Shown here piece by piece: positions 1,794-18,169 of a stretch of DNA of 64,000 bases. This DNA is from a virus (lineage: Duplodnaviria; Caudoviricetes), in the IMG/VR virus record IMGVR_UViG_3300020577_008743, positions 33,491-97,490 of that record; one strand, 5' to 3'. Positions within the stretch are counted from its first letter, which is position 1, and every line of letters starts with the position of its first letter. The position numbers and the translations under genes are program-made. Under the pieces are notes generated by a model that was given only the letters and a program-made list of their open reading frames with translations, was not told where the DNA came from and made no database searches.

Positions 1794-1832
1794 TTTCGAA
1801 TTGAACAATACTCTGAAAATCCCCCCTATTCC

Positions 1833-1841
1833 TGGTATAAG
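1833..1841 (+). promoter_or_regulatory. TGGTATAAG promoter motif
   Basis: Recurrent motif; a closed-stem RNA begins 6 nt downstream. Confidence 0.65.
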
Positions 1842-1846
1842 ACTGT

Positions 1847-2012
1847 GGAGGATTCTCAGGGTATCAATGGTTGTTGAGTTCAATTTGGAAAATTGTGGCC
1901 TAACAAGCCGGGATCTAACAAATCTAACTTAGTGACCAAGAGGAAGAGCTACTCTTTCTTGTTCCATCTGCACGAGGCAGAATCCAAGGCGGGTCGAGCC
2001 TGTGAATCCTCC
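1847..2012 (+). ncRNA. candidate structured ncRNA (GUA/GAG closing-stem family, member 1)
   Basis: GGAGGATTCTCAGG (1847-1860) pairs with CCTGTGAATCCTCC (1999-2012) with one mismatch; internal hairpins; no credible ORF. Confidence 0.6.
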
Positions 2013-2060
2013 CCTTCGGGCAAAAGTGTGGAAAATCAGCTTCCATAAAAATCAAATTGC

Positions 2061-2069
2061 TGGTATAAG
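2061..2069 (+). promoter_or_regulatory. TGGTATAAG promoter motif
   Basis: Recurrent motif. Confidence 0.65.
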
Positions 2070-2073
2070 ACAG

Positions 2074-2290
2074 TGTGATAAAGTATTATCGCGACTTCCG
2101 AACCCCTACTAAAGGTAGGGTCTAGCGGTTCAAGTCCTCGGTGCAAATCCGTGGCAAGTCAAGCGATGAGAGCATGCAACGTGCTCACTTTTCTCCACCT
2201 GGGTGGCCCCAAACCAGAGCTGGAGACCAGGACTGATCAATAGATGTAGTAGTTCTTCCCAGATCACGTCATAAAACAGAGTTTATCACA
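2074..2290 (+). ncRNA. candidate structured ncRNA (GUA/GAG family, member 2)
   Basis: TGTGATAAA (2074-2082) / TTTATCACA (2282-2290) terminal stem; T-loop-like CGG-TGCAAAT-CCG at 2139-2151; several hairpins. Confidence 0.6.
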
Positions 2291-2314
2291 AACGGATTTG
2301 TAGTACGGTAGTAA

Positions 2315-2492
2315 TGGAATAAGTCATAAAGCTGCCTAGGCTTGAGGAGAGGAAACTTCTCCACTTTTCTTTCGTGTCCGGTGAACCGGCACGAGGACTT
2401 AAACGACCACCTTTATATATATATAAAGTATATTAAAGGGCCCCCTGGAGCAGCTCAGCCAGGCGGGGCTGCAAAGTCGTTGAGTTATTCCA
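2315..2492 (+). ncRNA. candidate structured ncRNA (GUA/GAG family, possible member 3)
   Basis: TGGAATAA (2315-2322) / TTATTCCA (2485-2492) stem flanked by GTC and GAG; GAAA- and TGAA-capped hairpins inside. Confidence 0.5.
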
Positions 2493-2863
2493 CCAGTTTC
2501 AGTTTCAAAGTTTAAACCTGGTTAAAGTACCCTAATAAAACCAAAAAAGGGGTGAATGAAACGTTCACATTTTCTCTTCCACACAAGCACACTCAATAGA
2601 AAATCTCCTCGCAAAACCTGCTCGGAGTGGTGGTCTTGTGTGGACAATGGACTGACGGTCCGACAACCAATGCGCCTCCGGCAGCTATGCGTTGTTCGAA
2701 GACGTCGTCGACACTACAACTGATGTCTGCTGGTTGCGTATCGGCAGGCGCGATACCCAGCGGGCCGCCGGACACAAGAAGCGTACTCTTCAGCTGCTCG
2801 AGCACCTCCGCCACGGCACTGGTAGAACGGCTCCTTCAGTCATAAGTCAGTCGAGTTTAACCA

Positions 2864-2940
2864 GGGACTATAGCTCAATTGGTCAGAGCGAAGAACTCAT
2901 AATTCTGGGGTTACAGGTTCGAGCCCTGTTAGTCCCACCA
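2864..2940 (+). tRNA. tRNA with CAT anticodon (Met elongator or Ile2)
   Basis: Full cloverleaf GGGACTA/TAGTCCC, CT-CAT-AA loop, TTCGAGC T-loop, encoded CCA. Confidence 0.93.
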
Positions 2941-2991
2941 ATCCCCCGTAGTAGACCAGCAACAACACATAACCGCACCGAGAAAGACCGT

Positions 2992-3171
2992 ATGACAAAG
3001 TCGCTCTTCGTACTGAAAAACACTAAAACCGGGAAAACATCGGCGGAGACCTTCGCAAACAAGATGGACGCGAAGAATGAACGACGAGCGAGAAACGGAA
3101 TCAGCAAGGACGGCAAGGAAATCCTCACCTGGGTCGTGGCTTACGGCCCGGATCATCACAAGTCGGCTTAG
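2992..3171 (+). CDS. small basic hypothetical protein (59 aa)
   Basis: ATG at 2992 after the tRNA; the upstream part of ORF 2692-3171 overlaps the tRNA. Confidence 0.6.
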   Translation: MTKSLFVLKNTKTGKTSAETFANKMDAKNERRARNGISKDGKEILTWVVAYGPDHHKSA

Positions 3172-3206
3172 AAATAGGTCATCGTAACTGAATGAAAGGC
3201 TTCACC

Positions 3207-4010
3207 ATGGACGCCCGGAAATCCGTAGCACTGCACACCCTCGTCGCTGTTCGCCCGACGTTGGAAACAACCCTGAAAACGATCTCAGCCGAAACGGACA
3301 ACTCCTTCCGAAAACCCGAAAGCCTGACGGAATGGGAAAAGACCTTCACATCGACGGTCACCTGGCCGGAAGGCTCCGAGGCTCTGAAGGTCGCTCTGGA
3401 ATCCCAACGTTCCGGTCACCGTGCGGCGGTCACTTCAACTCAGGATCGAATCGGTTACGAAGCCGCCGAACAGGTCAAGTACTGGGACTTGATGCACAAC
3501 ATCGAGCTGGGCAACCAGGTCGCGGTTGCTGACGTGGTCCTAAAAGACGGCACAGTCTTGATGACCCGCGTCCCCGCAACGCACTTGCGTCGACTGGATA
3601 CGTGGCTCACCACCTTCCGCAACCGCATCGCGAACTGTCCCACGGTCCCGTCAACTATCAACGTGGAACAGGCCTCCCGCAACGGCAGAATGGTCTACGC
3701 CGGACCGGTGAAAACCATCACCGTGTACGAGGAAACCAAAAGCTGGGTGAAGGTCGCCGAGGCCAATGTACACCAGAAGGAAGCCACCGTCCGCGAAGCC
3801 GTCACCAAGACGCCAATCGGCATCGAGAAGGAGATCAACTACTACGGCATGCCCACTTCTTCGGAGAAGGCACAGCTGCTGACCCGTCTTGATGAGCTGA
3901 TCGTGGCAGTCAAGGAGGCGATCACTGAATCAAACACGGTGACCATCGAACCCGTTTCGGTCTCCAAAACTCTCATGGCCTATGCCTTCACCGGCAAGGT
4001 CAATGCCTGA
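3207..4010 (+). CDS. conserved helical hypothetical protein (resembles DUF7873-like family)
   Basis: LHTLVAV N-terminus, N..AVADVV..DG.VL...VPATHL..LD, LL.RLDEL..AVKEA..ESN pattern recalled from a widespread actinobacterial/phage family; GAAAGG RBS. Confidence 0.6.
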   Translation: MDARKSVALHTLVAVRPTLETTLKTISAETDNSFRKPESLTEWEKTFTSTVTWPEGSEALKVALESQRSGHRAAVTSTQDRIGYEAAEQVKYWDLMHNIELGNQVAVADVVLKDGTVLMTRVPATHLRRLDTWLTTFRNRIANCPTVPSTINVEQASRNGRMVYAGPVKTITVYEETKSWVKVAEANVHQKEATVREAVTKTPIGIEKEINYYGMPTSSEKAQLLTRLDELIVAVKEAITESNTVTIEPVSVSKTLMAYAFTGKVNA

Positions 4011-4028
4011 AAAGGAATGAAGTCGTAA

Positions 4029-4407
4029 GTTTGGCTAACGCACATTGCGCAACTCACAGCTGACATTGGGTCTGATAACCCTGAGGGTTATCTTGCAAGG
4101 CCCACAAACGCACAACGCAAAACGCCAAACAAACGCACATAACTTCCTGGAGTAGAAAACCGCCGAAAACATCGCCTTGGAGTTTCAAACGAAATCGTGT
4201 CGGGGGTTCGAGCCCCTCCGCCGCTTCAAATTGCATACTAACGTGTGTAATTCGGAGCGGTGTAACTCAGTGGTAGAGTACGGTTTCCAATACACCCAAA
4301 AAACCTCTAATGAGCGTGGTCAAAAGCACAACCAGGTATACTAATAGCGTATATTGCTACCAATGATACCAGGTCCCTATGGGGTCGGATAATGCCCTGT
4401 GGGGACC
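4029..4407 (+). ncRNA. large structured RNA with circularly permuted tRNA-like domain (4191-4287)
   Basis: T arm GGGGG-TTCGAGC-CCCTC, then acceptor CGCCGCT/AGCGGTG closed by a hairpin, then D arm ACTC-AGTGGTA-GAGT; nested long-range stems; AACGC repeats; terminal hairpin 4372-4407. Confidence 0.75.
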
Positions 4408-4445
4408 GCTTAATGCAGATTTGGATTCAATAAGTCTCCATTAAG

Positions 4446-4454
4446 CGGTATAAG
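4446..4454 (+). promoter_or_regulatory. GGTATAAG promoter motif
   Basis: Recurrent motif. Confidence 0.6.
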
Positions 4455-4461
4455 AATATGA

Positions 4462-4773
4462 AGGTAAAGTAACTGCTGTACTAAAAAAAAGCAAAGTGGG
4501 TGTAACATCCACACGTTTCTTTCAGTCCTAACAACTTGTGTCGTTCGCCTTTGGGCTCACTGGCCCCCTAACGGGTGCCCCACAAGTTGCCAGCTCTGAT
4601 GAGCTGGGCCTCAGGATCCAACGACTGGGTCCCCGGGGACTGGATGTCTTCTTGCACACCCGGTGCATTTTGGATGCTGAGCAAGATGGGCAACGCAATT
4701 GCCCGCCGGCTCAGTGAGATCTGCAGACATCGTCACCTGGTGTTGTTCTGGATCCCGAAGGTCGAGTTTACCT
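4462..4773 (+). ncRNA. candidate structured ncRNA (GUA/GAG family, member 4, ~310 nt)
   Basis: AGGTAAA/TTTACCT closing stem; helices CAACTTGTG/CACAAGTTG (4532-4540/4581-4589), TTCAGTCC/GGACTGGA, CCAGCTC/GAGCTGG, GGGCAA/TTGCCC. Confidence 0.6.
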
Positions 4774-4812
4774 ACATTAGCAACAGAAGTAGAAACAAAA
4801 TGAATTCAAGAA

Positions 4813-4936
4813 TTGAGGCTCTGGGAACAACATTGCGCCGCCTGAATGTCGGAACAAGGTCTTCCCCCCTGTGAGTTCGGCATTCCGCAATTTGGCGTCC
4901 TCCCGCCGAGTTGCATACCAATGCCCAGAGCCTCAA
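4813..4936 (+). ncRNA. candidate structured ncRNA
   Basis: Perfect 13-bp terminal stem TTGAGGCTCTGGG/CCCAGAGCCTCAA with inner GAATGTCGGA/TTCGGCATTC helix. Confidence 0.5.
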
Positions 4937-4941
4937 CCTTA

Positions 4942-5020
4942 CAAACGAAGAGCGTAAGCTCATGAATACGCCATCAACGAAGCTGACCACTTCGTTTCAA
5001 GCCCGGTCGTTCTTCGTTTG
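4942..5020 (+). ncRNA. candidate structured ncRNA or processing/terminator element
   Basis: 13-bp stem CAAACGAAGAGCG/CGTTCTTCGTTTG with inner AACGAAG/CTTCGTT hairpin. Confidence 0.4.
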
Positions 5021-5033
5021 TTTTAGCCACAAT

Positions 5034-5171
5034 TAGGACCGCAGAATTACGATTATCTATAATAGCTGACATGCTGCAGGTTCGAGTCCTGCCTGGCCCA
5101 CCATCTATGGGTCCAGTGGCGAAATGGTATACGCATCAGCCCTAAACCAGTCGTATTCATAATTTGTCCTA
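5034..5171 (+). ncRNA. Y RNA, YrlA-type (Ro-binding stem plus permuted tRNA-Leu-like domain)
   Basis: TAGGAC-CG...TTT-GTCCTA stem, TTATC motif, T arm GCAGG-TTCGAGT-CCTGC before acceptor loop and D arm. Confidence 0.85.
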
Positions 5172-5244
5172 TTCTTCAACGGGGGCGAAGTAGAAACTTA
5201 TGAAGTTCGCAGCTTCTATTTTTCGATACGCTTCCACCAACAAA

Positions 5245-8260: not shown

Positions 8261-8391
8261 TTGGACCGAAGTTATTCAGTTATCGCTCCCAATGCGCCAG
8301 ATCGGTTAAGTCCAGCACCCGTTGATTCATGGGTCGTAGTGTATAGAAGCACGGCGCATATTTTCAATTGATTAACGTTCACTTTGTCCAA
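8261..8391 (+). ncRNA. Y RNA with degenerate tRNA-like domain, immediately 5' of Ro60
   Basis: TTGGAC-CG...TTT-GTCCAA stem, AGTTATC, TGCGCC/GGCGCA helix, GG-TTAAGT-CC T-like loop. Confidence 0.8.
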
Positions 8392-8431
8392 CTCTGTTTT
8401 TACCCGTAGTAAACCAACCTGGAGAACCGAA

Positions 8432-10108
8432 ATGTCTGCAAAGAATCTTGTGAATCACCTCGTTCCGGGCCGCTATGCTTCCATTCCTGCGAAGCGTACT
8501 CCCGCCGCCCCGAAGGTGACCAAATCCACCAACCCGAACGCTGGCCTGCCGCCAGTGTCCACTTCTGCGTATCAGAAAACCGCCGCCGGCCAAGTTCAAA
8601 ACTCGTCCGGAGCCTATGTTGGCAAATTGGATGTGTGGGCTCATCTGAATCGGTTTCTCATTCTCGGCACTTCCGGCTCGTCCTACTACGCCTCAGAGCG
8701 CAAGATGACCGTTGACATGGCCAAGGCCGTGGAAGCTGCAGTGAAATACAACGGCATTTCCACCGTCGATCTGATCGTGGAAATCAGCCAAGCCGGTGCC
8801 GCTCCAAAGAATGATCCGGCCTTGCTGGCTCTGGCCATCTGCGTCGCCAAGGGGGATGATTCCACCAAGGCCTACGCAATGAACCAGCTGCCGAAGGTAG
8901 CCAGAATTTCGACTCACCTGTTCGATTTTCTGACCTACGTTCAGGCCATGAGAGGCTGGGGAAGAACCCTGAAAGAAGGTGTTGCCAACTGGTATACTTC
9001 CAAGGATCTGAACCCCTTAGCCATGCAGATGACGAAGTATCGTCAAAGAAATGGCTGGACTCACCGCGACGTTCTGAGACTGGCTCACCCGAAGCCCACC
9101 TCCGAGTCCATGAACAATCTGTTCAAGTGGGCCATCAAAGGTCCAGAAGCACTGGAAAGAGGTGCGGAAATCCCTGAACAAGTCATCGGCTTCGAGAAGG
9201 CAAAGACCGCAGGTTCCGGTACTCTGGTCAAACTGATTCAGGATTACCGCCTGACCTGGGAGATGATTCCGACTGAGATGCTGAATGATGCCAACGTGTT
9301 TCACGCTCTAGTCATGAGCATGAATCTCGAGGCCATGATTCGCAATCTGCCGCGCATCACCAATCTCAACTTGTTGCTTACTCGGGAAGTCAGGGACCGT
9401 ATTCTGAGTCTTCTGAGAAACGCAGAGGAGATCAAGGCCAAGCGGTACCATCCCCTCAAGGCTCTGGTGGCTAGAAAGACCTACGCCAGTGGCCGAGGTC
9501 TGAAGGGTAGCATGACCTGGGTACCCAACGCCGAGGTTGCCAGGGCCCTGGAAGACACGTTCTATCTGGGGTTCGATGCAGTGGAACCCACAGGCAAAAG
9601 ACTTCTGTTGGGTATCGACGTCTCCGGCTCCATGACCATGGGCCAAGTAGGGGGCATGCCCCTTGCTCCGTACGAAGCTGTTGCCGCAATGGCAATGGTT
9701 ACGGCACGTTGCGAACCTCTGGCAGAAATCCTCGGCTTTTCGTACAACCTGCAAGACCTTGGTATCAAGAACACCGATACTCTGGCCCAGGTTCTGAAGA
9801 AAGTGCAATTGGCTCGATTTGGAAGTACGAATCCCGGAGCACTAATTCAGTACGCAGCCAAGAAAGGCAATGTGGAAGGCCTGGTCGTCTACACCGACAA
9901 CGAAGTGAACCAAGGTTCCAGCGTTGCGGCAGAGATGAAGAAATATCGCACCAAGGCTTCTGTGGCCAGAGCAACGATGACTGTAGTCGGAATGACGGTC
10001 AACAATTTCACCCTAGCCGACCCCAAAGATCCAGACATGCTCGACATTGTTGGATTCGATACCGCTGCTCCAGCAGTGATGTCCGAGTTCATCAAGGGCA
10101 CTTTCTGA
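8432..10108 (+). CDS. rsr: Ro60/Rsr RNA-binding protein (TROVE plus vWA)
   Basis: LNRFLILGT..SSYY, KYRQRNGWTHRDVLRLAHPK TROVE signature, DVSGSM MIDAS, YTDNE, DIVGFD; ATG 8432 with GGAG RBS. Confidence 0.96.
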   Translation: MSAKNLVNHLVPGRYASIPAKRTPAAPKVTKSTNPNAGLPPVSTSAYQKTAAGQVQNSSGAYVGKLDVWAHLNRFLILGTSGSSYYASERKMTVDMAKAVEAAVKYNGISTVDLIVEISQAGAAPKNDPALLALAICVAKGDDSTKAYAMNQLPKVARISTHLFDFLTYVQAMRGWGRTLKEGVANWYTSKDLNPLAMQMTKYRQRNGWTHRDVLRLAHPKPTSESMNNLFKWAIKGPEALERGAEIPEQVIGFEKAKTAGSGTLVKLIQDYRLTWEMIPTEMLNDANVFHALVMSMNLEAMIRNLPRITNLNLLLTREVRDRILSLLRNAEEIKAKRYHPLKALVARKTYASGRGLKGSMTWVPNAEVARALEDTFYLGFDAVEPTGKRLLLGIDVSGSMTMGQVGGMPLAPYEAVAAMAMVTARCEPLAEILGFSYNLQDLGIKNTDTLAQVLKKVQLARFGSTNPGALIQYAAKKGNVEGLVVYTDNEVNQGSSVAAEMKKYRTKASVARATMTVVGMTVNNFTLADPKDPDMLDIVGFDTAAPAVMSEFIKGTF

Positions 10109-10155: not shown

Positions 10156-10182
10156 AGGGTGCAGAACATCGTACCCTTTTTT
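10156..10182 (+). terminator. intrinsic terminator after rsr
   Basis: AGGGTGC/GTACCCT hairpin plus T-run. Confidence 0.7.
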
Positions 10183-11819: not shown

Positions 11820-12428
11820 ATGAGTCAGCCACCAGTTTACCGCAACACTCTCCCCGATCATCTGTTTCAGATGTACCCGCTGTTGAAACGTACCCTCACG
11901 CTGATTCAGCTGGGACACGCCGGTCAGTTGTACAACGGGCATCCTTACTGGCATCATCCGGTGCGGGTTGCCATGAGGCTGGAATCACTGTGGGTACAGA
12001 ACGAGGGGTCTTTGCTGTATTCCGCTCTTCTTCACGACTTGATCGAAGATACTTCCCTGGAAGTCGATGATTTGAAGGAGTTCGGATATTCCGACACCGT
12101 GGTAAAAACGGTCAAAGCCCTGACTCATGATGCATTCGATACCCGGACGTACATGGAGTATGTCCAGGACATCACCATTCATCCGGAGTCTTTCGTTCGC
12201 CACGGAGCCAGCCTTGTCAAGTTGGCAGACCTGACGGAGAACGTGAACGGAGCCAGGTTTCTGCCCATGGAGAAAAGGGGAAGAATGGAACGTTACGGAA
12301 AGGCAATATCGGTCATTCAAGACTCTCTCATTCTTCACAGCCCCTGGGTAGCCCACTCCGTCCACGTCGGTGAGTTGGACGCAGCCAAGCTTGAGATGTG
12401 GTTCGGCCATCCCCCAGCGTTTCTGTAA
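11820..12428 (+). CDS. HD-domain hydrolase, RelA/SpoT hydrolase (SAH/Mesh1)-like
   Basis: HAGQ...PYWHHP, ALLHDLIEDT, VKALTH, VKLADLTEN motifs. Confidence 0.85.
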   Translation: MSQPPVYRNTLPDHLFQMYPLLKRTLTLIQLGHAGQLYNGHPYWHHPVRVAMRLESLWVQNEGSLLYSALLHDLIEDTSLEVDDLKEFGYSDTVVKTVKALTHDAFDTRTYMEYVQDITIHPESFVRHGASLVKLADLTENVNGARFLPMEKRGRMERYGKAISVIQDSLILHSPWVAHSVHVGELDAAKLEMWFGHPPAFL

Positions 12429-16939: not shown

Positions 16940-18169
16940 ATGAGCCAACACGAAGTACTAATATACAAGGCAAAGCTGCTGCCTCATCCCAACGCGGATA
17001 TGATAGAGCTTTGTCAGATCGGAGACTACCTCTCTATTGTCAAGAAGGGTGATTTCAAGGAAGATCAGCCGGTAGCCTATATTCCTGAACAATCAATTGT
17101 TCCAGAACCTCTTTTGGAAGAAATGGGGTTGAAGAACAAGCTCTCTGGTGCAGCCCGAAACCGGGTCAAAGCCATCAAGTTGCGTGGTACTCTATCCCAG
17201 GGCTTGGTGTACGTCAAACCGGGAGGTTACGCCGAAGAGGACGTAGGTCGAAACGTAGCTGAAGAGCTGGGGATCATCAAGTGGTCTCCGACTCTACCGG
17301 TCCACCTACGAGGAAAAGCCAAAGGCATGGCTTACGATATTACTGTCAACTACGATATAGAGAATATCAAAAAATGGAACCGACACATTGAAGAAGGGGA
17401 CTTGGTAGTAATCACCGAGAAAATTCATGGAACAAACGTCCAGATTGGTTATGCTCCACGTTGTGGGAGCAGTGGCGGAGGGGTGGGCATTAGTTATGAC
17501 GGACAGTCTTCCTCCGGAGGGCCCGATGGAGGTGGGTCAGGCGTTGACGTGGTCTCATCCGAGACCAGGAATATTCTGTTTGAGAACTCATTCTGGGTTA
17601 GTTCAAAAGGTTTGGGTGGTAGGGGAATCATTCTCGATATGGAAGATTCCTCCAACGTTTACGCCAATATTGCTCGTTCCATCGAATATAACCTTCTTGA
17701 GAAAATCCGCAATTTTTACACCGGAAAAAACCTCAGACACATCGAGTATCTCTCAGGCCTTCAATGCCCCCCGATAGTCCTGATAGGAGAAATATTCGGG
17801 CCAGGTATTCAAACAGGTTTTCACTACGGTCAAACCAAGCCTGAATTCAGGCTATTCGACATTGCTGTAGGCCCTCGTAATAACAGGATGTACCTGAGCT
17901 GGGACGATTACATGCAAGCAGCCTTTATCATGGGCATTCCGACAGTCCCTACTTTGTATATCGGTCCGTTCTCAAAAGAGATTCTGGCACAGTACACCTC
18001 TGGCAAGGAAAAGGTTACCAACCATTCCCACCACATGAGGGAAGGTTGCGTAGTTCGGTTGATCAATGAGAAGTCTTCAGGAAACCTGGGCAGGGTTATT
18101 CTGAAGAGCATATCGGAAGAGTATCTAACTAGAAAAGGTACCGAGGAAGAATTGACGGAGTACCAGTGA
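16940..18169 (+). CDS. ATP-dependent RNA ligase, DRB0094/Rnl5 type with N-terminal OB domain
   Basis: PHPNAD.IE, RVKAIKLRG..SQG, motif I TEKIHGTN, GEIFG, FDI, EGCVV, ILKSIS. Confidence 0.92.
   Translation: MSQHEVLIYKAKLLPHPNADMIELCQIGDYLSIVKKGDFKEDQPVAYIPEQSIVPEPLLEEMGLKNKLSGAARNRVKAIKLRGTLSQGLVYVKPGGYAEEDVGRNVAEELGIIKWSPTLPVHLRGKAKGMAYDITVNYDIENIKKWNRHIEEGDLVVITEKIHGTNVQIGYAPRCGSSGGGVGISYDGQSSSGGPDGGGSGVDVVSSETRNILFENSFWVSSKGLGGRGIILDMEDSSNVYANIARSIEYNLLEKIRNFYTGKNLRHIEYLSGLQCPPIVLIGEIFGPGIQTGFHYGQTKPEFRLFDIAVGPRNNRMYLSWDDYMQAAFIMGIPTVPTLYIGPFSKEILAQYTSGKEKVTNHSHHMREGCVVRLINEKSSGNLGRVILKSISEEYLTRKGTEEELTEYQ

What the first reader, a model, noticed from the sequence alone, without database searches (positions are those of the whole stretch)
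1833..4773. Second ncRNA family: promoter-driven RNAs of 166-312 nt closed by a stem plus GUA/GAG motif
Seen: three RNAs start 5-8 nt after a GGTATAAG motif, and their ends pair in stems of unrelated sequence (1847-1860/1999-2012, 2074-2082/2282-2290, 4462-4468/4767-4773). In each, the stem is followed directly by GTA on the 5' side and preceded by GAG on the 3' side (GGTCGAG in two). A fourth (2315-2322/2485-2492) has GTC/GAG. The interiors differ but are multi-helical. Known: 5'-GUA/5'-GAG is the bacterial 5S loop E submotif, a protein-binding non-canonical element. Inference: a second constant-handle, variable-cargo RNA family, parallel to the Y RNAs, with an unidentified protein partner. 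It matches no family I recognise.
Basis: partly seen in the sequence, partly recalled or inferred. Interest (0 to 1): 0.82.

Follow-up and report, generated by a model that had tools for sequence, protein, structure and literature searches.

The report
Five-member phage structured RNA family
An uncultured wastewater phage that also carries Ro60 and many Y RNAs encodes five related folded non-coding RNAs, one more than was flagged; they share a closing stem with a 5S-rRNA-like GUA/GAG cap and an internal hairpin followed by a pyrimidine tract, they match no catalogued RNA family, and their function is unknown.

Summary
It is stronger and somewhat different than described. The bare "stem + GUA/GAG" pattern is as common as chance (56 seen, 43 in shuffles). 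But the units are paralogs of one family with five members: A 1847-2012, B 2074-2290, C 2315-2492, D 4462-4773 and a new one, E 2520-2862, which abuts tRNA-Met. Their interiors are not unrelated. All five carry a covarying 7-bp triloop hairpin followed by A and a pyrimidine tract. The full signature occurs four times on the + strand, against 0.14 in shuffles.

GGTATAAG is the phage's general promoter -10 element, and the closing stem P1 begins at the predicted +1 in A, B and D. C and E have no promoter and follow B in one transcript. A sludge metatranscriptome contig covers 4485-4733 of D and reads through the terminator-like hairpin. Rfam gives no match.

I could reach no homologs. The only near relatives are Logan contigs, and the tool that fetches them was closed. 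So conservation rests on paralogs alone. The loop-E reading is met at sequence level only, and the protein partner is untested.

Verdict: a real, uncatalogued, lineage-restricted phage ncRNA family of unknown function.

The parts
1834..1841 (+). Promoter -10 word TGGTATAAG of unit A
   Evidence: 8 copies in the window against 1.47 expected, all on the + strand. P1 starts 5 nt later, at the predicted +1.
1847..2012 (+). Unit A (166 nt). P1 1847-1860/1999-2012; GUA 1861-1863; hairpin Hp-b 1942-1958; tract 1959-1969; GGUCGAG 1992-1998.
   Evidence: z -4.35; P1 p 0.91, Hp-b p 0.99.
2062..2069 (+). Promoter -10 word TGGTATAAG of unit B, and probably of the B-C-E-tRNA-Met transcript
   Evidence: No further GGTATAAG lies before tRNA-Met.
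2074..2290 (+). Unit B (217 nt). P1 2074-2082/2282-2290; GUA 2083-2085; about 80-nt insert with T-loop-like words; Hp-b 2170-2186; tract 2187-2197; GAG 2279-2281.
   Evidence: (z -3.27).
2315..2492 (+). Unit C (178 nt), no promoter of its own. P1 2315-2322/2485-2492; GUC 2323-2325; Hp-b 2346-2362; tract 2363-2373; GUCGUUGAG ends at 2484; followed by CCA.
   Evidence: (z -4.73).
2517..2865 (+). Unit E, the new fifth member. Core 2520-2862: P1 GGUUAAA 2520-2526 / UUUAACC 2856-2862 (extendable to 10 bp, 2517-2526/2856-2865); GUA 2527-2529; Hp-b 2552-2568; tract 2569-2579; GUCGAG 2850-2855. A2863 is the only base before tRNA-Met G+1.
   Evidence: 10-bp stem hit; z -5.0.
2864..2940 (+). tRNA-Met(CAU), directly behind unit E. 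Its RNase P site would create E's 3' end.
   Evidence: 67.8 bits; ARAGORN.
4447..4454 (+). Promoter -10 word GGTATAAG of unit D
   Evidence: P1 starts 7 nt later.
4462..4773 (+). Unit D (312 nt). P1 4462-4468/4767-4773; GUA 4469-4471; Hp-b 4496-4512; tract 4513-4523; GGUCGAG 4760-4766.
   Evidence: (z -3.38). A metatranscriptome contig covers 4485-4733.

Best explanation
The stretch encodes a lineage-specific family of five paralogous, stable, structured non-coding RNAs on the + strand of an uncultured sludge/wastewater phage.

Shared plan of each unit:
- A terminal helix P1 joins the 5' and 3' ends.
- P1 is capped by G.G / U-A / A.G (5'-GUA, 3'-GAG).
- On the 3' side a helix ending in GUC usually runs straight into GAG.
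- On the 5' side a variable hairpin or domain follows GUA.
- Next comes a conserved 7-bp hairpin with a G-C pair at both ends and an NAA triloop.
- Then an A and a mostly single-stranded pyrimidine tract (YUUUUCUYUYC).
- Then variable helices.

Transcription and processing:
- A, B and D start at their own early-type extended -10 promoters, with +1 on the first base of P1.
- C and E are transcribed behind B, separated by 24-nt A/U-rich spacers.
- RNase P cleavage of tRNA-Met makes E's 3' end (inferred).
- P1 protects both ends after processing (inferred).

Most likely role (inferred, not shown): the RNA parts of ribonucleoproteins or decoys. The P1 plus loop-E-like cap and the hairpin plus pyrimidine tract would be the two constant protein-binding (or pairing) sites, and the peripheral domains would differ between paralogs.
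For: Family and structure:
- The full signature occurs four times, all on the + strand within 2.7 kb of gene-free DNA, against 0.14 in shuffles. In 1.44 Mb of other Ro60-phage loci it gives 8 hits against 9 in the control.
- Hp-b: 35 of 35 cells paired, 5 of 7 pairs with changes on both sides, 0 of 500 shuffles as good.
- P1: 34 of 35 cells paired, with 2-4 pair types per position, while GAG is 5/5 and GUA 4/5.
- MFE z-scores are -3.3 to -5.0. The + strand folds better than the - strand in 4 of 5 units.
- Hp-b contains G.U pairs, which would be A.C on the other strand.

Non-coding:
- The ORFs over the units match no PHROG family.

Transcription:
- The promoter word is enriched and strand-specific.
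- An RNA-library contig covers 4485-4733 of D and reads through Hp-b.
- The same library yields a non-genomic junction (5171 + A + 4034) and no cover on protein genes, so its signal is RNA.

Distinct from known families:
- No Rfam match.
- The handle differs from this phage's Y RNAs.
- The cap has the same letters and topology as the E. coli 5S loop E half.
Against: - No homolog from another genome could be examined, so all conservation comes from five paralogs in one genome.
- Only D has RNA cover, and that cover is one Logan contig at depth about 2 that shows no transcript ends.
- Unit C has GUC instead of GUA, which turns A.G into a Watson-Crick C-G pair. A strict loop-E geometry is therefore not kept in all units.
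- The cap is only half of a bacterial loop E, and it faces a junction rather than a second helix.
- No partner protein is identified.
- The hairpin plus tract also fits weak terminator or antiterminator readings.
Confidence: 0.6

Rival explanations
1. They are divergent Ro60-system RNAs, a second kind of Y RNA. They would bind the phage Ro60 or its partners through a different handle, and the pyrimidine tract would play the part of the pyrimidine-rich loops of Y RNAs.
For: - Same strand as the Ro60 gene (8384-10105) and 3.6-6.5 kb upstream of it, interleaved with YrlA-like RNAs at 4198-4279 and 5046-5160.
- Bacterial species have extra Y RNAs with small pyrimidine-rich loops, and more are expected (PMC4201824).
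- GGUCGAG resembles the vertebrate GGUCCGA(G) word (lead only).
Against: - cmscan gives no YrlA hit in the units even at E<10.
- The GNCGAAN0-1G / bulged-C handle near the 5' end is absent. The similar word sits on the 3' strand, in the opposite orientation.
- The signature is not enriched near 80 other phage Ro60 genes.
Confidence: 0.12
2. The conserved hairpin plus U/C tract is an intrinsic terminator or attenuator. The units would then be regulated leader modules that make short RNAs and control read-through into tRNA-Met and the downstream genes.
For: - The terminator scan flags 2170-2186, 2346-2362, 2552-2568 and 4496-4512.
- The module always lies in the 5' part of a unit, 20-24 or 83-84 nt after GUA.
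Against: - The stem is always followed by A and then C/U/CG before the U run, and the run is broken by C. The phage's clear terminator at 10156-10177 has six U directly after the stem.
- An RNA contig runs through D's hairpin.
- tRNA-Met and the two ORFs behind it have no promoter of their own, so three such modules must be read through.
- The P1 3' strands lie far downstream and covary.
Confidence: 0.1
3. The hairpin plus tract is a boxB-boxA-like processive antitermination signal, as in rRNA operons. It would protect the long untranslated RNA operon from Rho.
For: - The order hairpin then pyrimidine word is the rrn order.
- C and D carry UUCUUU and A carries CUCUUU, the core of boxA words as I recall them (own knowledge; sequences).
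- About 1 kb or more of untranslated transcript must be completed.
Against: - Any pyrimidine tract looks like boxA.
- No full boxA consensus is present.
- The host and its boxA are unknown.
- The motif is repeated in every unit rather than once behind the promoter.
Confidence: 0.08
4. The units are DNA-level repeats (small inverted-repeat elements or recombination sites) or chance stems, not RNAs.
For: - P1 has no G.U pairs, so it could equally be a DNA inverted repeat.
- Tandem modules beside tRNA genes are often mobile DNA in other genomes (scan notes).
Against: - The terminal repeats differ in sequence between copies, with compensatory changes.
- There are no target duplications.
- Hp-b uses G.U pairs, and folding is stronger on the + strand in four of five units.
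- P1 starts at the promoter +1.
- D has RNA cover.
- Chance is excluded.
Confidence: 0.04

Closest known systems
Bacterial 5S rRNA loop E (E. coli G76-U77-A78 / G98-A99-G100 half; L25 binding site)
   Same: The same two trinucleotides, in the same topology (5'-GUA, enclosed domain, GAG-3'). A C-G pair of the inner helix abuts GAG in A, C, D and E, as C97-G79 does in 5S. L25 binds loop E (PMC4408793).
   Different: Only one of the two loop E halves is present. The inner side is a multi-helix junction. Unit C has GUC. Geometry and protein binding are untested.
Bacterial and phage Y RNAs (YrlA, Rfam RF02553; Chen et al. 2014, PMC4201824)
   Same: Small structured RNAs closed by a terminal helix, encoded in several copies on the Ro60 strand of the same phage, partly processed from common precursors together with tRNA. 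They are modular: a constant handle plus other domains and a pyrimidine-rich single strand.
   Different: No Ro60-binding word (GNCGAAN0-1G, bulged C), no UUAUC, no tRNA-like module, no cmscan hit. They lie further from Ro60 than the 4 kb typical of YrlA.
Phage T4 stable RNAs C and D (species 1 and 2) of the tRNA cluster (own knowledge, not checked here)
   Same: Phage-encoded stable non-tRNA RNAs co-transcribed with tRNA genes and released by host processing enzymes. Their function has long been unknown.
   Different: The T4 RNAs are single genes, not a five-member family with a shared cap and hairpin-tract module.
Scan note e1-5749398: tandem 'stem-GAGG...GUA-stem' RNA units between tRNAs of a 170-kb prophage
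   Same: A phage tRNA-island array of covarying units with a loop-E-like GAG/GUA junction and no catalogued family.
   Different: The motif is on the opposite strands (GAGG on the 5' side, GUA on the 3' side) and the units are small hairpins.

Membership tests
Y RNA / YrlA (RF02553) | Ro60-binding terminal helix with GNCGAAN0-1G (GGUCCGA-like, bulged C) near the 5' end | tested here: not met
   The 5' ends are P1 plus GUA. The phage's own Y RNAs show GRRCCG.../...GCYC, and units A-E do not. Motif definition from PMC4201824.
Y RNA / YrlA (RF02553) | tRNA-like module / match to the covariance model | tested here: not met
   cmscan at E<10 on 1840-2870 and 4440-5040 gives no YrlA or tRNA hit inside the units. 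YrlA hits lie at 4198, 5046, 5876 and 8160 only.
Y RNA / YrlA (RF02553) | Encoded within about 4 kb of Ro60 on the same strand | tested here: inconclusive
   Same strand. D ends 3.6 kb before Ro60 (8384). A to E lie 5.5-6.5 kb before it.
Y RNA / YrlA (RF02553) | Bound by Ro60 | not testable with these tools
   Needs immunoprecipitation or a binding assay.
Bacterial 5S loop E submotif | 5'-GUA-3' facing 5'-GAG-3' in the 5S topology | tested here: met
   GUA in A, B, D and E, GUC in C; GAG in all five. E. coli rrfB has G76U77A78 / G98A99G100.
Bacterial 5S loop E submotif | Internal loop between two helices, with a second symmetric half | tested here: not met
   There is no second half. P1 lies on one side and a multi-helix junction on the other. 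A helix abuts GAG only on the 3' strand.
Bacterial 5S loop E submotif | G.G bifurcated, U.A trans Watson-Crick/Hoogsteen and A.G sheared geometry; L25/CTC binding | not testable with these tools
   Needs probing, a structure or a binding assay.
Intrinsic terminator | G+C-rich hairpin directly followed by a U run | tested here: inconclusive
   Flagged by the consensus scan. But A plus C/U/CG separates stem and U run, and the run is broken by C.
Intrinsic terminator | Transcripts end at the site | tested here: not met
   For D only: the RNA-library contig 4485-4733 crosses 4496-4523. A, B, C and E have no RNA cover.
Catalogued RNA families (GOLLD, ROOL, tmRNA, 6S, ribozymes and all of Rfam 15) | Match to the family covariance model | tested here: not met
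   No hit at gathering score or at E<5 to E<10. The best are 14.8-19-bit chance-level rows.

The most novel reading that the evidence does not exclude
The five RNAs are the RNA subunits of a so far unknown phage ribonucleoprotein class. A 5S-loop-E-type cap on the closing helix would recruit a host 5S-binding (L25/CTC-type) or other RNA-binding protein. The hairpin plus pyrimidine tract would recruit a second factor. The phage would thus use 5S-like molecular mimicry alongside its Ro60/Y RNA/RNA-ligase set to take over host RNA quality control or ribosome-linked stress functions.
Probability: 0.1. Interest if true: 0.8.

Novelty: new variant of a known kind. Interest (0 to 1): 0.55.

Why it matters
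Phage genomes hold many structured RNAs of unknown role beside tRNA genes. This phage is an extreme case. About 8 kb upstream of its Ro60 gene holds at least eight Y-type RNAs, a tRNA, several other folded RNAs and this five-member family.

A second multi-copy RNA family with its own constant modules, next to the Y RNAs, suggests that the phage deploys more than one RNA-protein system against or through host RNA metabolism. The family gives defined, testable elements for pull-downs and mutagenesis: the P1 cap, and the hairpin plus pyrimidine tract.

If the loop-E-like cap really binds a 5S-binding protein, it would be a new case of rRNA mimicry by a virus. If not, the family still adds an uncatalogued class to the inventory of phage ncRNAs.

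Tried and rejected
Searches for homologs, all without result:
- blastn of 1800-5200 against 50,697 phage records found only tRNA-Met hits.
- Searches in IMG/VR with DUF7873, Ro60 and TerL found no close kin.
- An alignment of Ro60 relatives fetched 80 IMG/VR loci. blastn of the RNAs against them found nothing. The signature scan gave 8 hits against 9 in the control. Covariance model R1 gave a next-best score of 17.5 bits.
- Two JGI metagenome scans were empty.
- The GTDB genome scan found one 39% Ro60 relative only.
- A DUF7873 alignment in IMG/VR found nothing.
The Logan contigs of the only near relatives could therefore not be read: P0003 (68% Ro60), P0004 (60%) and P0272 (89% DUF7873, 69.5-kb contig).
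- The genome search does not draw relatives for a virus record.

Sequencing runs:
- The DNA runs that were laid were almost all identical to the window, so they gave no variants for covariation.
- Units A, B, C and E had no cover in the one RNA run. That is no evidence of silence.

Other tests:
- DUF7873 as a partner: good AlphaFold model (pLDDT 88.9), but no PDB sequence or fold match above background. This says nothing either way.
- Coding reading: seven + strand and two - strand ORFs over the units have no PHROG hit.
- A common base-pairing target of the pyrimidine tracts in the phage genome: none found.
- A consistent pseudoknot partner of the tract: not found by eye. E has a 7-bp AGAAAAU match in its next hairpin, the others do not.
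- tRNA-like reading of P1: no T arm next to the 3' strand. Only C ends in ACCA.
- The RNAs at 4011-4461 and 4774-5033 fold well but lack the family signature.
Full report
CONTEXT. The window is bases 33491-97490 of a single 97.5-kb contig of an uncultured phage. It encodes a large terminase, a tail fibre protein, a helicase and an RNA ligase. It also encodes a Ro60 ortholog at 8384-10105, three tRNAs and four YrlA-like RNAs. Its DNA is present in sludge, wastewater and river metagenomes of nine studies. No isolated phage and no IMG/VR contig is closely related.

CHECK OF THE OBSERVATION. Each of the four RNAs folds with its terminal helix in the minimum-energy structure, and all are more stable than dinucleotide shuffles, with z -3.3 to -4.7. 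GGTATAAG occurs 8 times in the window against 1.5 expected. There are 15 exact copies in the genome (plus one GGTATAAA variant), all on the + strand, several in front of protein genes and tRNA-Arg. It is therefore the phage's general extended -10 promoter word (TG-n-TATAAG), not a mark of this RNA family. In A, B and D the first base of the closing helix lies 5, 4 and 7 nt after the word, which is at the expected +1.

On its own, "stem of 6 or more followed by GTA and preceded by GAG" is no rarer than chance: 56 instances on both strands against 43 in shuffles. The bare motif proves nothing.

WHAT IS REALLY THERE. The same scan found a fifth unit, E. It reads CCUGGUUAAA-GUA ... GUCGAG-UUUAACCAGG at 2517-2865, with its core at 2520-2862. 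It has the strongest fold of all, z -5.0.

Comparing the five units shows that the interiors are related. Each contains a 7-bp hairpin with a G-C pair at both ends and a three-base loop (NAA in four units, CUA in A). In B, C, D and E an A follows and then a pyrimidine tract: ACUUUUCUCC, ACUUUUCUUUC, ACGUUUCUUUC and AUUUUCUCUUC. Unit A has UUGUUCCAUCU directly after the stem.

- The hairpin is paired in 35 of 35 cells. Five of its seven pairs change on both sides, and no shuffle out of 500 does as well.
- P1 is paired in 34 of 35 cells, with two to four pair types per position. GAG is kept in 5 of 5 units and GUA in 4 of 5.
- The hairpin lies 20-24 nt after GUA in C, D and E, and 83-84 nt after it in A and B, which carry a larger first domain.
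- The helix just before GAG ends in GUC in A, C, D and E. In C and E it runs straight into GAG.

The combined signature (P1, GU[A/C]/GAG, hairpin, tract) occurs four times in the genome, all on the + strand between 2074 and 4773. Block shuffles give 0.14 on average and never more than 2. Unit A joins when one P1 mismatch is allowed. A covariance model of hairpin plus tract finds only the five copies (27.7-34.5 bits), and the next best hit scores 17.5 bits in 1.5 Mb. The + strand folds better than the - strand in four of five units. The hairpin also uses G.U pairs. The ORFs over the units match no PHROG family. This is one paralogous RNA family, not chance and not DNA repeats.

TRANSCRIPTION AND PROCESSING.
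- No terminator separates A from the promoter of B.
- C follows B after 24 nt, and E follows C after 24 nt. Both spacers are A/U-rich and lack the promoter word.
- tRNA-Met starts one base after E's P1. B-C-E-tRNA-Met, and probably the two ORFs behind it, therefore look like one transcript.
- RNase P cleavage of tRNA-Met would make E's 3' end at 2863. This follows from established knowledge of RNase P and was not shown here.

A sludge metatranscriptome (X20) holds a contig covering 4485-4733, inside D. It crosses the internal hairpin and ends in nine untemplated letters, AAAAACAAA. A second contig joins 5126-5171, one A, and 4034-4177, a junction that does not exist in the DNA. No protein gene in the stretch is covered. 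The signal is therefore RNA, D is expressed, and its hairpin does not stop all transcription. The evidence is thin: Logan contigs at depth about 2, with no information on ends. A, B, C and E had no cover.

COMPARISON WITH KNOWN THINGS.
- Rfam 15 gives nothing for the units at gathering score or at E up to 10.
- The phage's own Y RNAs use a different handle: GRRCCG at the 5' end, GCYC at the 3' end, plus UUAUC. The published YrlA word GNCGAAN0-1G (PMC4201824) is absent from the 5' ends of the units. They are not Y RNAs by the tested criteria.
- E. coli 5S rRNA has G76-U77-A78 opposite G98-A99-G100, with helix IV enclosed between them. This is the same arrangement as P1-GUA ... GAG-P1, and L25 binds that loop (PMC4408793). 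However, only one half of the symmetric loop is present, its inner face is a junction, and unit C replaces A.G by C-G.
- The terminator scan flags four of the five hairpins. But the U run never follows the stem directly, D is read through, and tRNA-Met depends on read-through.
- A boxB-boxA-like antitermination reading is possible but rests only on the pyrimidine words.

HOMOLOGS. All accessible routes failed (see Tried and rejected). The only near relatives are proteins on Logan contigs: P0003 (68% Ro60), P0004 (60%) and P0272 (89% identical DUF7873, on a 69.5-kb contig). The signature is not enriched within 10 kb of 80 other phage Ro60 genes. The family is therefore not a general companion of Ro60.

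MECHANISM.
- Shown: five covarying, + strand, promoter-linked structured units with two constant modules, and RNA cover of one unit.
- Inferred: polycistronic synthesis and processing, P1 as end protection, and coaxial stacking of P1, the cap and the inner helix.
- Speculative: the cap and the hairpin-tract as binding sites for unknown proteins. The candidate DUF7873 gene between the units has a confident model but no informative fold match.

VERDICT. This is a real, uncatalogued, so far lineage-restricted phage ncRNA family. It is richer than first described, and its function is unknown. Interest is moderate. It would be higher if sister phages confirm the constant modules or if a partner is found.

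Noticed in passing
window 4034-4177 and 5126-5171: A metatranscriptome contig joins 5171 (the 3' end of the YrlA-like RNA 5034-5171), one extra A, and 4034 (inside the RNA with AACGC repeats and a permuted tRNA domain). This junction is absent from the DNA. It marks RNA ends at 5171 and 4034. It could be RNA-RNA ligation (the phage has an RNA ligase at 16940-18166) or a library chimera.
   Followed up: no
window 4733: The RNA contig over unit D ends at 4733 with nine untemplated letters, AAAAACAAA. This looks like an A-rich tail of the kind added to decay intermediates. It is a single low-depth contig.
   Followed up: no
window 4774-5033: A separate, strongly folded RNA (z -5.9). It has a 13-bp long-range helix (UUGAGGCUCUGGG/CCCAGAGCCUCAA) and a long terminal hairpin followed by UUUGUUUU. 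It lacks the family signature, so D and this RNA are two units rather than one 560-nt RNA.
   Followed up: partly
window 2315-2496: Unit C reads U-GGAAUAA ... UUAUUCC-ACCA: a 7-bp terminal stem followed by a tRNA-like ACCA, with U at -1. This is the form of a minimal RNase P / CCA-end substrate. Only C has it, so it may be chance.
   Followed up: no
window 2086-2165: The extra first domain of unit B is closed by a 7-bp stem (UUAUCGC/GCGAUGA). It holds a second 7-bp AAA-triloop hairpin (CCCUACU-AAA-GGUAGGG) and T-loop-like words (GGUUCAAGUCC, GGUGCAAAUCC). There is no tRNA or YrlA hit at E<10.
   Followed up: partly
window 2600-4000: G+C rises to 0.56-0.61, against about 0.45 around it. The rise covers the 3' domain of unit E, tRNA-Met, a 59-aa ORF (2992-3168) and the DUF7873 gene. 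This may be an acquired block.
   Followed up: no
window 3192-4007: The DUF7873 protein (PF25283, E 6e-25) has 743 relatives of about 250 aa in the 1.8-billion-protein library. Its AlphaFold model is confident (pLDDT 88.9): a helical bundle plus a long beta-hairpin sheet. It has no PDB or PHROG match.
   Followed up: partly
window 11820-12425 and 16940-18166: An HD-type metal-dependent phosphohydrolase (phrog_990) and an RNA ligase (phrog_968) lie downstream of Ro60, together with promoter-driven tRNA-Arg and tRNA-Ser. This is an RNA repair and metabolism neighbourhood.
   Followed up: no
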